In this document: in pieces, positions 43,501-46,500 of the stretch | Numbering within the stretch: position 1 is the stretch's first letter | Layout: each line of letters opens with the position of its first letter | Assembly: GCA_024137785.1 (NCBI GenBank) | Contig: JAHRHZ010000031.1 | Span: 3,643,725 to 3,707,724, forward strand | Length of the DNA: 64,000 bases | From: Ginglymostoma cirratum | Lineage: Eukaryota | Reading direction: 5' to 3' | Made by a program: the position numbers

Positions 43501-46500
43501 TCCCGGTCTACTCAGTCTGTCCTCATAATCCAACCCTCTCAACTCTGGAATCAACCGAGTGAATCTCCTGTGCACCCCCTCCAGTGCTCGTATATCTCTT
43601 CTCAAGTAAGGAGACCAAAACTGCCCACAGTACTCCAGGTGTGGCCTCACCAGGACCCTATACAGCTGCAGCGTAGCCTCCCTGTTTTTAAACTCCATCC
43701 CTCGAGCAATGGCAGACAAAATTCCATTTGCCTTTTTAATTACCTGCTGTATTTGCAATCCTACTTTTAGCGATTCATGCACAAGGCCACCCAAGTCCCT
43801 TTGGCCAGCAGCGTGCTGCAATTTTTTCCCATTTAAAACATAGTCCATTTTGCTGTTATTCCTACCAAAATGGATGACCTCACACTTATCAACATTGTAC
43901 TCCATCTGCCAGACCTTTGCCCTCTCACTTAGACTATCTGTATCCCTCTGCAGACTTTCAGTGTCTTCTGCACACTTTGCTCTACCACTCACCTTAGTGT
44001 CATCTGCAAATTTTGACATACCACACTTAGTCCCCAACTCCAAATCATCTATGTAAATTGTAAACAATTGAGGTCCCAACACTGATCCCTGAGGCACACC
44101 ACTAGCCACTGACCGCCAACCAGATAAACACGCATTTACCCATACTCTTTGCCTTCTACTGGTCAACCAATCCTCTATCCATGCCAATACATTACCTGTA
44201 ATACCGTGCAACTTTATCTTATGTAGCAGCCTTTGGTGTGGCACCTTGTCAAATGTCTTCTGGAAATCCAGACACACCACATCCACAGGCTCCCCATTGT
44301 CCACCATGCAAGTAAAATGTGAGCAGATTTAATAATGAGTTTGTAACTTAAGAGCCTGGAGCGGAGTATCAGTATTCATAAACAGCTGTGACTCCCATCA
44401 ATCTCACCAAATCATTTTGTCCCTCTTAGAAAAATCAATAAGGCTCATTCTCGGTGAAGCACTCAGTGATGCAAGTAATTCAAAGAATTCCACCAAATTA
44501 GTTAAACATGACCTACCCTTCATGAACCCATGCTGGGTGTTCCCAATGGGACAATTTATATCCAGATATCTTGCTATTTCTTCCTTAATGATAGATTCAA
44601 GCATTTTCCCCACTAGCAAAGTTGAGCTAAGTGGCCTATAGTTACCTGCTTTTTGTCTACTTCCTTTTTTAAACAGTGGCATCACATTGGCTGTGTTCCA
44701 ATCTGTGGGAACCACCCCAGAGTCCAGTGAATTTTGGTAAATAATTACTAGCGCATTTGCTATTTCCCCCATCACCTCTTTTAGTACCTTGGGATGCATT
44801 TCATCAGGGCCAGGAGACTTGTCTACCTTTAGCCCCATTAGCTTGCCCAGCACTGCCTCCTTAGTCAAAGGGTGAACATATTGAGAATTCCTGCAGGCTG
44901 ATGTATTTGCATCAATTCAGCACTTTGTTGTCCTCCAGGGGATGCCCAGTTTTCACCTGAGGCTGTGAAGTTGGAAGCTATTCAGCTGCTTTACTTTGTT
45001 TACATGAATTGGCCATGCTTTGCTACTGTAAAGGAGGGTGCTGAGAACAAAAACCGGGTACACACCAGGCCTTGTATTTTTTGCTAGTTTGTTGTTGGCC
45101 CGCATGTAATTTCTCAATTTTGACATTACATCTGCACCCTTAGAAATCCTAGTACTGAATTTGGCATCAAAGGTTAGCCTGCTGGTATCTGTTGAGCTAA
45201 GACAATGTGAAGCTGTCAACAACCATTTGCATGAAGTTGTTAATATTGATTTGGTGCACAGTGGAGTCTGTACTTTCTGGCCCCTAACTTTGGTCTCCCT
45301 GATGCTGATTGTTAGTCCACACTCTTTGCAGGCCTGGGAGAACAGACCTGCACACTGCTACAAGTGAACTTCAGTATGGAATATCAGTGTGACATCATCA
45401 CTAAATAGCAACTCTCAGATCTAGATATTACACACTTTTTGGTCTTTGCTAAATTGAAAAACATACTTCAGTCCTGGAGTGCCGATGAATAACTTTATTT
45501 GACTCACGAAAAGTGTACAGTCGTTGGATACAGCACAGAGCATGTTTTGACCCCAAAACATTTTGCAAACTGAAATAAGTATTTATTTAAAATTTGGTCT
45601 TGGAATAACAGAAGTTCTTCAGCGTAAAATGTGAAACAAAACTTGTAATTTCTGACTGCACAGTGGTGATGTCAGTTATTGACAAAGTGGTTGGTTCACT
45701 GTTACGAAAAGAAAATGCAAAGCACAAAGAAGTGCTTCACCGAGAATGAGCCTTATTGATTTTTCTAAGAGGGACAAAATGATTTGGTGAGATTGATGGG
45801 AGTCACAGCTGTTTATGAATACTGATACTCCGCTCCAGGCTCTTAAGCTACAAACTCATTATTAAATCAGCTCACATTTTCACAAATATATAAAACTCAT
45901 CACTGCAAGCTTCCCACAGCCTGGCAGAAACAAATGCCAAGACTTTAAACTGCTGTTGGGATTTTTTAAGTTGTAATCCTGGGCAATCCAGAAGTGAGTC
46001 TCATGTCAGCAGATTTATTTATCAAGGAGAAATCCAAAGTCAAGTGGAATTTGGTTAAAATCTATTGTCTTTTTAAAATGTGAGGTAGTAAAATAGTGCA
46101 AATAAACAGAATGTGGTCAGTTTACTTACTGCATATTTTCGGTTTTCTTATGTGTATATGAATAAATTATGGTATTCCCAGGCCAGCATGTAGTTGTGAT
46201 TATGGCTCCTAATGGCTGATGGATACAATTTGCAGTTTTGTTTAACCAATAAAGCACTTTTAACCTGTATTTTGTTGAAAGTCTGCAGATGCACAAGTCC
46301 ACAGCAGCAATCTATGATTAACGGGCTGTGGTTTAAGTTATTGAGCTGATGGGGAGAGTTCATTGGGAGATGGGCAACACTTGTATAGTGTCTGCAGGGA
46401 GGTTAAATACAGCTTGTTTTTAATAAAATAGCTTCAGCTGTGATTTTGGTATAAAATCAACTGAAGCTAGTGTTTTACAGCTTACTGACAGTGACTTCAC

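What the first reader, a model, noticed from the sequence alone, without database searches (positions are those of the whole stretch)
44306..45880. LINE with an inverted 150-bp copy of nearby host intron inside its RT: footprint of a template jump onto the host sense strand?
Seen: the young CR1 RT frame (..NLVEFFE | MVDNGEPVDVV..) is interrupted by 44314-44463, the reverse complement (148/150) of non-LINE intron sequence at 45731-45880, ~0.9-1.0 kb beyond the LINE 5' end. The insert is bracketed by a duplicated LINE 10-mer ATGCAAGTAA (44306-44315, 44469-44478) with a 5-nt filler CAGTG, and the frame is broken after the second copy. Because the LINE is on the minus strand, first-strand cDNA is the + strand made in increasing coordinates, so the insert was templated by sequence of POLA1 sense polarity. 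Inference: during target-primed reverse transcription the RT jumped from LINE RNA onto the nascent POLA1 pre-mRNA (or exposed + strand DNA), copied 150 nt, then re-primed on LINE RNA 10 nt back. Alternative: later break repair with a locally templated insertion (Pol theta type). A double switch using the target locus itself as template would be unusual.
Basis: partly seen in the sequence, partly recalled or inferred. Interest (0 to 1): 0.8.

Follow-up and report, generated by a model that had tools for sequence, protein, structure and literature searches.

The report
Inverted intron patch inside shark LINE
A 150-base piece of a shark DNA-polymerase-alpha intron was copied backwards into a jumping-gene remnant 1.3 kb away, most likely by an error-prone DNA repair or replication slip and not by the jumping gene's own enzyme, which makes it a tidy example of a known kind of mutation.

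Summary
Bases 44314-44463 are the reverse complement (148/150) of 45731-45880. This is the only such pair in the 64-kb window and by far its most identical repeat. The patch sits in the reverse-transcriptase gene of a 5'-truncated CR1-like LINE on the minus strand. The LINE lies in a 7.85-kb intron of a shark POLA1 orthologue on the plus strand.

New anatomy:
- The two LINE pieces lie in the same frame as they stand. Against 101 of 101 relatives, the copy is four bases short besides the 163 added. So this is neither a clean target-site duplication nor a clean "re-prime 10 nt back".
- The 5-nt filler looks templated from 18 nt beyond the source.
- The source's right edge coincides with a perfect 10-bp inverted repeat (P~0.002).

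A multi-patch, microhomology-primed, inverted local copy fits replication- or break-repair template switching (MMBIR or fold-back type), with the LINE as bystander (~0.6). A LINE-RT jump during integration is not excluded (~0.12). LINE age and patch age cannot be separated here. It is a new member of a known kind, of modest interest.

The parts
43088..44872 (-). 5'-truncated CR1-like LINE, given as one part that includes the nested patch. Its RT gene is broken by 1 nested insertion block, 1 small deletion and 1 frameshift. There are 0 stops in the 1524 LINE-derived coding bases, and the endonuclease part is lost by 5' truncation.
   Evidence: RVT_1 on both sides of the patch. tblastn of 7 relatives covers 44868 down to 43173. 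Relatives are chondrichthyan, bird and turtle CR1-type proteins; the full-length ones carry Exo_endo_phos plus RVT_1. Stop count. Diverged copies of the 3' tail elsewhere in the window begin to match at 43080-43085.
43080..43087 (.). Left copy of an 8-bp direct repeat bracketing the LINE. It is probably the LINE's own target-site duplication, or target/tail microhomology.
   Evidence: An exact 8-mer is shared with 44873-44880.
44873..44880 (.). Right copy of the 8-bp direct repeat bracketing the LINE.
44306..44315 (.). Left copy of the duplicated LINE 10-mer. Its last 2 bases overlap the inverted copy.
44314..44463 (+). Inverted copy of intron sequence 45731-45880 (148/150), nested in the LINE.
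44464..44468 (+). 5-nt filler. With the next 3 bases it equals the reverse complement of 45898-45905, so it is probably a second templated patch.
   Evidence: 8-mer match. (P about 0.03 for a random filler). (14 of 18 in register; upstream run of 5, P about 0.006).
44469..44478 (.). Right copy of the duplicated LINE 10-mer.
45731..45880 (+). Source (template) of the patch. It is unique intron sequence of host-gene sense polarity.
   Evidence: No Rfam family, tRNA or terminal inverted repeat.
45720..45737 (+). Small hairpin (6-bp stem, 6-nt loop). The left end of the copied stretch falls in its loop.
   Evidence: Read from the sequence.
45723..45730 (.). 8-mer abutting the source on the left. 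It matches 7 of 8 (6 in a row) with the 8-mer abutting it on the right (45881-45888). Unexplained.
   Evidence: P=0.0008 at the exact bounds and 0.014 allowing +-2 nt.
45881..45888 (.). 8-mer abutting the source on the right, partner of 45723-45730.
45898..45905 (-). Probable template of the filler. The in-register homology extends to 45915.
46075..46084 (.). Partner arm of a perfect 10-bp inverted repeat with 45871-45880, the last 10 bases of the source. The 11-mer across the left junction of the patch (44313-44323) recurs only at 46074-46084.
   Evidence: P=0.002 for a random 150-nt segment.
40646..40789 (+). POLA1 exon closing the intron on the left.
   Evidence: tblastn with three shark POLA1 proteins, exon by exon.
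48642..48767 (+). POLA1 exon closing the intron on the right.

Best explanation
This is a templated inverted insertion made at the DNA level. The LINE is a bystander that happened to hold the break or stall site.

Proposed course of events (inferred):
1. A growing or broken DNA 3' end inside the integrated LINE came off its template.
2. It primed with 2-3 nt of microhomology on single-stranded DNA 1.3-1.8 kb away in the same intron.
3. It crossed to the opposite strand at a pre-existing 10-bp inverted repeat and copied about 150 nt.
4. It made a second short copy of 5-8 nt nearby.
5. It re-annealed 10 nt behind its point of departure.
6. Synthesis or joining then went on with the loss of four bases.

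Two variants give the same product: restart of a stalled or collapsed fork (MMBIR/FoSTeS type), and repair of a double-strand break in which one end is extended by fold-back or template-switch synthesis and then joined to the other end.

Shown: the sequence anatomy and its statistics. Inferred: the enzymes, the direction of synthesis, and the timing after LINE integration.
For: - The copy is inverted, local and unique.
- The product has several patches: 148 nt, then 5-8 nt from 18 nt beyond the source, then a 10-nt direct repeat of the flank.
- Junction overlaps are short: 2 nt, or 3 nt with the direct site at 46074; 0; and 3.
- The source edge coincides with the end of a perfect 10-bp inverted repeat, P=0.002.
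- Four LINE bases are lost at the rearrangement, judged from a constant spacing in 101 of 101 relatives that have both anchors (26 of 120 proteins, 75 of 120) and from the shared frame. Both passes over the 10-mer therefore end at the same point, as expected for a break end or a template obstacle there.
- The LINE has its own 8-bp flanking repeat, so its integration looks conventional.
- Published signatures match. MMBIR-linked templated insertions are inverted copies of a nearby template flanked by microhomology, at 80% of junctions 2-12 bp (passages of PMC8421209). Fold-back inverted insertions at yeast breaks run from 2 to about 150 bp. That paper's 'distant inverted insertions' start by a template switch at inverted microhomology (passages of PMC11724301).
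Against: - Nothing dates the patch after the LINE. The LINE's 0 stops in 1524 coding bases allow up to about 5% divergence. The arms' 2/150 gives 0.08-2.4% per lineage. The ranges overlap.
- The template lies 1.27 kb away, beyond the 100-bp search radius of the MMBIR survey I read.
- In the human-chimp survey of short template switches, returns behind the departure point were not observed (passages of PMC5453318).
- One junction shows no terminal microhomology.
- If the + strand was the growing strand, as weakly suggests, the template had host-sense polarity. That needs an exposed + strand (lagging-strand template, R-loop) or RNA.
- The 7/8 direct repeat flanking the source plays no part in this model.
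Confidence: 0.6

Rival explanations
1. During target-primed reverse transcription of this LINE, the RT left the LINE RNA and copied 150 nt of host-sense nucleic acid (nascent POLA1 pre-mRNA or exposed + strand DNA). It then returned to LINE RNA 10 nt back and finished the 5'-truncated copy.
For: - The patch lies inside the LINE. The LINE occupies about 1.8 of the 7.85 kb of the intron, so a bystander hit had roughly a one-in-four chance.
- The homology before the filler favours growth of the + strand, which is the first-strand cDNA direction.
- The ages are compatible.
- RT template switching and inverted target-flank pieces at L1 insertion sites are on record (passages of PMC11702581).
Against: - Re-priming on intact LINE RNA would restore the four bases that are missing.
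- Non-LTR RTs are described as switching from the 5' end of a template to the 3' end of another (abstract start of 10.1101/792986, listing).
- Known chimeras carry the foreign part at the LINE's 5' end (passages of 10.1101/2025.02.02.635956).
- My searches (listings only, apart from the two papers read) showed no case of a host-flank patch with LINE sequence on both sides.
- The inverted-repeat coincidence has no role here unless the RNA folded.
Confidence: 0.12
2. A separate, later retro-insertion. LINE machinery nicked the old LINE copy with a 10-bp stagger and reverse-transcribed a 150-nt fragment of local intron RNA in trans, leaving a 10-bp target-site duplication.
For: A perfect 10-bp direct repeat brackets the patch, with a short overlap at one junction and extra bases at the other, as at LINE 5' junctions. 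An active CR1 family existed in this genome.
Against: - The duplication is not clean: four bases of the target are missing next to it.
- The fragment has no LINE-like 3' tail.
- The extra bases look templated from beside the source.
- A template 1.27 kb away is an odd coincidence for a trans event.
Confidence: 0.06
3. The 150-mer is a small mobile or dispersed unit that inserted twice, each time with its own target-site duplication (10 bp in the LINE, 8 bp at 45723-30/45881-88).
For: Both copies are bracketed by direct repeats. The repeat around the 'source' has P=0.0008-0.014.
Against: - There are only two copies in 64 kb, even at low stringency, and they are 1.27 kb apart and 98.7% alike.
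- There is no terminal inverted repeat (9 of 30 matches).
- There is no tRNA or Rfam family. The only hits were three chance-level ones, E 0.22-0.88.
- It does not explain the inverted-repeat coincidence or the templated filler.
Confidence: 0.06
4. Assembly or library artefact, such as a chimeric read or an in-vitro template switch.
For: Inverted local chimeras are a known artefact class (recalled, not checked). No reads were available.
Against: The arms differ at 2 of 150 positions, which an artefact made from one molecule would not show. The patch is embedded in continuous sequence on both sides and has a structured junction.
Confidence: 0.03

Closest known systems
MMBIR-linked templated insertions (MMB-TI; Osia et al. 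2021, PMC8421209, passages read)
   Same: An inverted copy of a nearby template, microhomology at the junctions, several template switches possible, and a return near the point of departure.
   Different: The template here is 1.27 kb away, whereas that survey searched within 100 bp. The patch is 150 nt. One junction has no terminal microhomology. This is a germline event in a shark, with no genetic evidence for the pathway.
Fold-back and 'distant inverted' templated insertions at double-strand breaks in yeast (PMC11724301, passages read)
   Same: Inverted insertions up to about 150 bp. Synthesis primed at short inverted microhomology, with the other side joined without homology. Inversion starts by a template switch at an inverted repeat of 2-11 bp.
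   Different: In the local class the inverted repeat sits right at the break. Here the 10-bp inverted repeat sits at the source, 1.4-1.8 kb from the insertion site. A direct part of the insert, if any, is at most 11 nt and cannot be told apart.
Short-range template switching, four-point model (Loytynoja and Goldman 2017, PMC5453318, passages read)
   Same: The same formal description: leave at point 1, copy points 2 to 3 in reverse complement, return at point 4. Either intra-strand or inter-strand.
   Different: Those events span tens of bases. Orders in which point 4 precedes point 1 were not observed there. Here the return is 10 nt behind the departure, which points to a freed nascent strand (break-induced type) or a break end.
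Polymerase theta end joining with templated insertions (Kent et al. 2016, PMC4912351; start of abstract only, listing)
   Same: Alternation of templated extension in cis (snap-back), templated extension in trans, and non-templated extension. A patchwork insert with a small deletion.
   Different: By my recollection these inserts are usually much shorter and templated within tens of bases of the break. No enzyme can be assigned from sequence.
LINE chimeras by RT template switching, and twin priming (10.1101/2025.02.02.635956 and PMC11702581, passages read)
   Same: A non-LINE sequence joined to LINE sequence in one insertion. Short overlaps or extra bases at the joints. Small duplications or deletions (1-10 bp) at internal breakpoints of twin-primed copies.
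   Different: In chimeras the foreign part is at the LINE's 5' end, not flanked by LINE sequence on both sides. Twin priming inverts the LINE's own 5' part, whereas here both LINE pieces keep one orientation and frame.

Membership tests
MMBIR-type templated insertion | The insert is an inverted copy of a template close by | tested here: met
   148/150 reverse-complement match, 1267 nt away, and the only pair in the window. The distance is larger than the 100 bp used in PMC8421209.
MMBIR-type templated insertion | Microhomology at the switch junctions (2-12 bp at most junctions) | tested here: inconclusive
   2 nt (or 3 nt with the direct site at 46074) at the left junction. 3 nt between filler and 10-mer. 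0 terminal nt between copy and filler, but a run of 5 lies three bases in.
MMBIR-type templated insertion | Dependence on break-induced replication factors | not testable with these tools
   Sequence alone.
Four-point short template switch | [quoted passage not shown] | tested here: not met
   Reverse complement: yes. But the return lies 10 nt behind the departure in either direction of synthesis, a class not observed in PMC5453318. The scale is also about ten times larger.
Local fold-back insertion at a break | Inverted microhomology immediately next to the break primes the synthesis | tested here: not met
   The 10-bp inverted repeat lies at the source (45871-80 / 46075-84), not at the insertion site.
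LINE chimera by RT template switch | The foreign sequence lies at the 5' end of the LINE part, within one pair of target-site duplications | tested here: not met
   LINE sequence lies on both sides of the patch, in one orientation and frame. The LINE as a whole sits between 8-bp repeats.
Twin-primed LINE insertion | The 5' part of the LINE is inverted relative to the 3' part | tested here: not met
   Both pieces are on the minus strand.
Retro-insertion with target-site duplication | An exact duplication of the target, with the target otherwise intact | tested here: not met
   The 10-bp repeat is exact, but four target bases are missing against 101 of 101 relatives that have both anchors.
CR1-clade LINE | RT domain, with an APE-type endonuclease upstream in full-length members, and closest relatives among CR1-type elements | tested here: met
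   RVT_1. Best hits are chondrichthyan proteins, up to 85% identity (P0247). Bird and turtle proteins hit at 40-53%, many carrying PF03372/PF14529 plus PF00078. This copy lacks the endonuclease through 5' truncation. No phylogeny was made and the 3' tail motif was not tested.
SINE or small-RNA retrocopy (for the 150-mer) | A tRNA/7SL/5S-like or other known RNA head, a LINE-like tail, and many copies | tested here: not met
   0 tRNA. 0 Rfam matches at gathering score; the only matches were three at E 0.22-0.88. 2 copies in 64 kb. The genome-wide count was not possible.

The most novel reading that the evidence does not exclude
The template was RNA. A stretch of nascent POLA1 pre-mRNA was reverse-transcribed into the locus, either by the CR1 RT in the middle of its own target-primed reverse transcription (a double jump off the LINE RNA and back onto it) or by a repair polymerase with RT activity at a break in the LINE. 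That would make the patch a germline footprint of transcript-templated DNA synthesis at the transcript's own gene.
Probability: 0.12. Interest if true: 0.75.

Novelty: new member of a known kind. Interest (0 to 1): 0.3.

Why it matters
As a single case, this is a cleanly resolved germline example of a multi-step templated inverted insertion in a cartilaginous fish. Its forensic marks tie the switch points to local repeats: the edge at a 10-bp inverted repeat, the templated filler, and two passes that end at the same point.

It also creates a 148-bp near-perfect double-stranded stem in the POLA1 pre-mRNA. In the predicted fold, 148 of 150 arm positions pair with their partner, and the arms alone give -269.5 kcal/mol. 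Such a stem could be a substrate for RNA editing or small-RNA production, or could affect splicing of this intron.

If the minority reading were right, and RNA was the template or the LINE RT did the copying, it would bear on how often non-LTR RTs or repair polymerases copy local transcripts into the genome. That needs a genome-wide census, not this one locus.

Tried and rejected
- **Known RNA or SINE origin of the 150-mer.** Rfam at gathering score found 0 in the whole window. A permissive scan of 45500-46100 gave three chance-level hits, E 0.22-0.88. ARAGORN found 0. The terminal inverted repeat check gave 9 of 30. Rejected.
- **Diverged extra copies in the window.** None found.
- **Twin priming.** Rejected, because both LINE pieces have the same orientation.
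- **Dating the LINE from close relatives.** The protein collection holds nothing closer than 78% (near lengths) or 85% (longer). Other LINE copies in the window are only 59-85% alike over short stretches. So no distance to a near copy could be measured. I built no consensus.
- **Dating from decay.** 0 stops in 1524 coding bases bounds the LINE only at about 5% or less, and this overlaps the arms' interval.
- **Direction of synthesis.** Junction overlaps are symmetric (2-3, 0, 3 nt in either direction). Only the in-register homology before the filler leans to + strand growth.
- **The 7/8 direct repeat around the source.** I considered a target-site duplication, a looped-out or circular template bounded by the repeats, and chance. 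None is established.
- **Pfam scans of open frames.** 138 + 150 + 121 frames served only to place the host exons and other RT fragments.
- **Collections not used.** The genome-contig collection holds bacteria and archaea only and was not scanned.
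Full report
**Observation.** The window holds a 150-nt inverted repeat, 44314-44463 against 45731-45880, with 148 matches and 1267 nt between the arms (pair I1). 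The mismatches are at 44325 and 44346, and neither is at a CpG. The LINE 10-mer at 44306-44315 recurs at 44469-44478. Five unmatched bases (44464-44468) separate the copy from the second 10-mer. The first two bases of the copy are also the last two of the left 10-mer. A self-comparison of the whole window gave 8 non-self pairs, and the only others at 92% identity or more are 29 and 36 nt long. Low-stringency searches (blastn word 7 at E<=1, nhmmer at E<=10) found no third copy.

**Setting.** The window is not human. Five + strand exons match DNA polymerase alpha catalytic subunit: 37445-37576, 39547-39756, 40646-40789, 48642-48767 and 49408-49584.
- Two of them hit solved POLA1 structures at E 1e-34 and 2e-29.
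- The best named protein hits are sharks, Rhincodon typus and Heterodontus francisci, at 96% on the queried exon.
- tblastn with three shark proteins leaves no residue gap of exon size between 40789 and 48642.

Insert and source therefore lie in one 7852-nt intron, and the + strand is the gene's sense strand. I searched the exons one by one and did not join them into a spliced model.

**The LINE.** The patch lies in a minus-strand LINE.
- Its RT domain is split across the patch: Pfam RVT_1 profile positions 5-55 on one side and 70-197 on the other.
- Relatives are chondrichthyan proteins (best 78% identity at near lengths; best 85%, P0247, at longer lengths) and bird and turtle CR1-type proteins at 40-53%. 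Many full-length relatives carry an Exo_endo_phos domain upstream.
- Protein similarity runs from 44868 down to 43173, so the copy is 5'-truncated and lacks the endonuclease.
- It sits between exact 8-mers at 43080-87 and 44873-80. These are probably its own target-site duplication, so its integration looks conventional.
- Its gene carries one nested insertion block, one small deletion, one frameshift and no stop in the 1524 LINE-derived coding bases. The inserted copy brings 3 stops in the LINE's frame (message).

**New anatomy, 1: not a clean duplication.** As they stand, the two LINE pieces lie in the same reading frame, although 163 bases (148 + 5 + 10) were added. The tblastn alignment of P0006 has 477 columns for 424 residues, a net gain of 53 codons. 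Relatives have a constant spacing of 8 residues between two anchors that flank the site. This held in 26 of 26 proteins that have both anchors out of 120, and in 75 of 75 out of 120, including the closest relative. The remaining 94 and 45 proteins lacked one or both anchors. The copy is therefore four bases short at the rearrangement. The event is +163 and -4. That is not a clean target-site duplication, and not a clean resumption on the old template 10 nt back, because either would keep those bases. Both passes over the 10-mer end at the same point, which suggests a break end or an obstacle at that point.

**New anatomy, 2: the filler is probably templated.** The filler plus the next three bases is the reverse complement of 45898-45905, 18 nt beyond the source. 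A random filler gives such an 8-mer match within 50 nt of either source end with P about 0.03. The 10 bases before it also match in register at 6 of 10, with a run of 5 (P about 0.006; 14 of 18 overall). That upstream homology could help priming only if the + strand at the LINE was the growing strand.

**New anatomy, 3: the source edges coincide with local repeats.**
- The last 10 bases of the source (45871-80) form a perfect inverted repeat with 46075-84. A random 150-nt segment shows a terminal inverted match that long within 300 nt in 0.2% of 50000 trials.
- The 11-mer across the left junction of the patch (44313-23) recurs only at 46074-84. So the first 10-11 bases of the patch may have been copied in direct sense there, before a strand switch at the inverted repeat.
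- The left end of the source lies in the loop of a small hairpin, 45720-37 (read).
- The source is also flanked by 8-mers that match 7 of 8 (P=0.0008 at the exact bounds, 0.014 allowing 2 nt of play). I cannot explain this.

**Ages.** No stop in 1524 coding bases gives P(0)=0.28 at 2% divergence, 0.15 at 3% and 0.04 at 5%. The LINE is therefore young, but bounded only at about 5%. The arms differ by 2/150, exact 95% interval 0.16-4.7% pairwise, half of that per lineage. If the copying was error-prone, the mismatches may be partly copying errors. The ranges overlap. No closer LINE copies were within reach.

**Mechanism.** The product is a mosaic of an inverted distal copy, a second short copy from beside the source, and a direct repeat of the flank. 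It comes with a four-base loss, has overlaps of 0-3 nt, and has one switch point at a pre-existing inverted repeat. This matches what is described for microhomology-mediated template switching at collapsed forks or breaks:
- In yeast, fold-back inverted insertions of 2 to about 150 bp arise when one end primes synthesis and the other is joined. Inverted insertions from other loci start with a template switch at inverted microhomology (passages of PMC11724301).

I take this DNA-level reading, with the LINE as bystander, as the best explanation (0.6). It has two variants, fork restart and break repair.

Against it:
- Nothing dates the patch after the LINE.
- The template is 1.27 kb away.
- Returns behind the departure point were not seen among short human-chimp template switches (passages of PMC5453318). 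This pushes the reading toward a freed nascent strand or a break end, not a slip within an intact fork.

A jump of the LINE RT during integration remains possible (0.12). The patch is inside the LINE, a roughly one-in-four chance for a bystander hit in this intron. The polarity hint fits first-strand cDNA. L1 insertion sites can hold template-switched and inverted flank pieces (passages of PMC11702581). But the model does not explain the four missing bases. It needs an internal departure from the LINE RNA and a return to it, whereas non-LTR RTs are described as switching end to end (abstract start of 10.1101/792986, listing). Chimeras in print carry the foreign part at the LINE's 5' end (passages of 10.1101/2025.02.02.635956). 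In my searches (listings only beyond the two papers read) I saw no case of a host-flank patch with LINE sequence on both sides. That is a statement about those searches only. A repair polymerase copying RNA is also conceivable (abstract start of PMC8195485, listing).

**Other rivals.** These are a later retro-insertion of local RNA with a 10-bp duplication (0.06), a small mobile unit inserted twice (0.06), and an artefact (0.03). The last is made unlikely by the two arm differences.

**Consequence.** In the sense transcript the two arms pair. 148 of 150 arm positions pair with their partner in the predicted fold of 44300-45900, and the arms alone give -269.5 kcal/mol. The POLA1 pre-mRNA thus gained a long double-stranded stem.

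**Verdict.** The feature is real and neatly structured. It is best read as a new member of a known kind, a templated inverted insertion made by template switching. Interest is modest unless a census shows a link to LINE integration or to RNA templates.

**Unchecked.** The following could not be checked: read support, genome-wide copy number of the 150-mer, other copies of this LINE family, and orthologous loci. I saw no supplements. The supplementary figure of PMC5453318 that lays out all switch-point orders may bear on the comparison made above.

Noticed in passing
window 37445-37576, 39547-39756, 40646-40789, 48642-48767, 49408-49584 (+): Five consecutive exons of a POLA1 orthologue, covering residues about 1027-1274 of shark proteins. 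The best named matches are sharks: 96% on one exon to Rhincodon typus and Heterodontus francisci, and 100% on 48642-48767 to R. typus. No further exon was found in the first 37 kb or the last 14 kb of the window.
   Followed up: partly
window 11222-11898 (-), 59543-59950 (-), 1429-1761 (+): Other decayed retroelement pieces. There are RVT_1 hits at two places. A Pfam ALKBH8_N hit at 1429-1761 is, by my recollection, a match often given by the C-terminal part of CR1-type LINE proteins and not a real ALKBH8 gene.
   Followed up: no
window 7270-8081, 10507-11411, 47521-48312: An older repeat family of about 830 bp with copies about 73% alike. One copy lies in the same intron as the finding.
   Followed up: no
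window 43080-43307 against 33418-33560, 20477-20658, 15529-15711, 57592-57821: Diverged copies (65-73%) of the LINE's 3' tail region are scattered over the window. The family or its tail is therefore old and abundant, while this copy is young.
   Followed up: partly
window 45723-45730 and 45881-45888: The source of the patch is bracketed by 8-mers that match 7 of 8. This is unlikely by chance (P 0.0008-0.014), and no mechanism I considered explains it.
   Followed up: partly
window 44314-44463 with 45731-45880 (+ strand transcript): The new inverted repeat predicts a 148-bp double-stranded RNA stem with a 1.27-kb loop in the POLA1 pre-mRNA. It is a possible editing or small-RNA substrate.
   Followed up: partly
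window 44953-45357 (-): A 134-codon open frame just beyond the LINE's 5' end has no Pfam match. To my eye its translation resembles the C-terminal part of another LINE family. Not tested.
   Followed up: no
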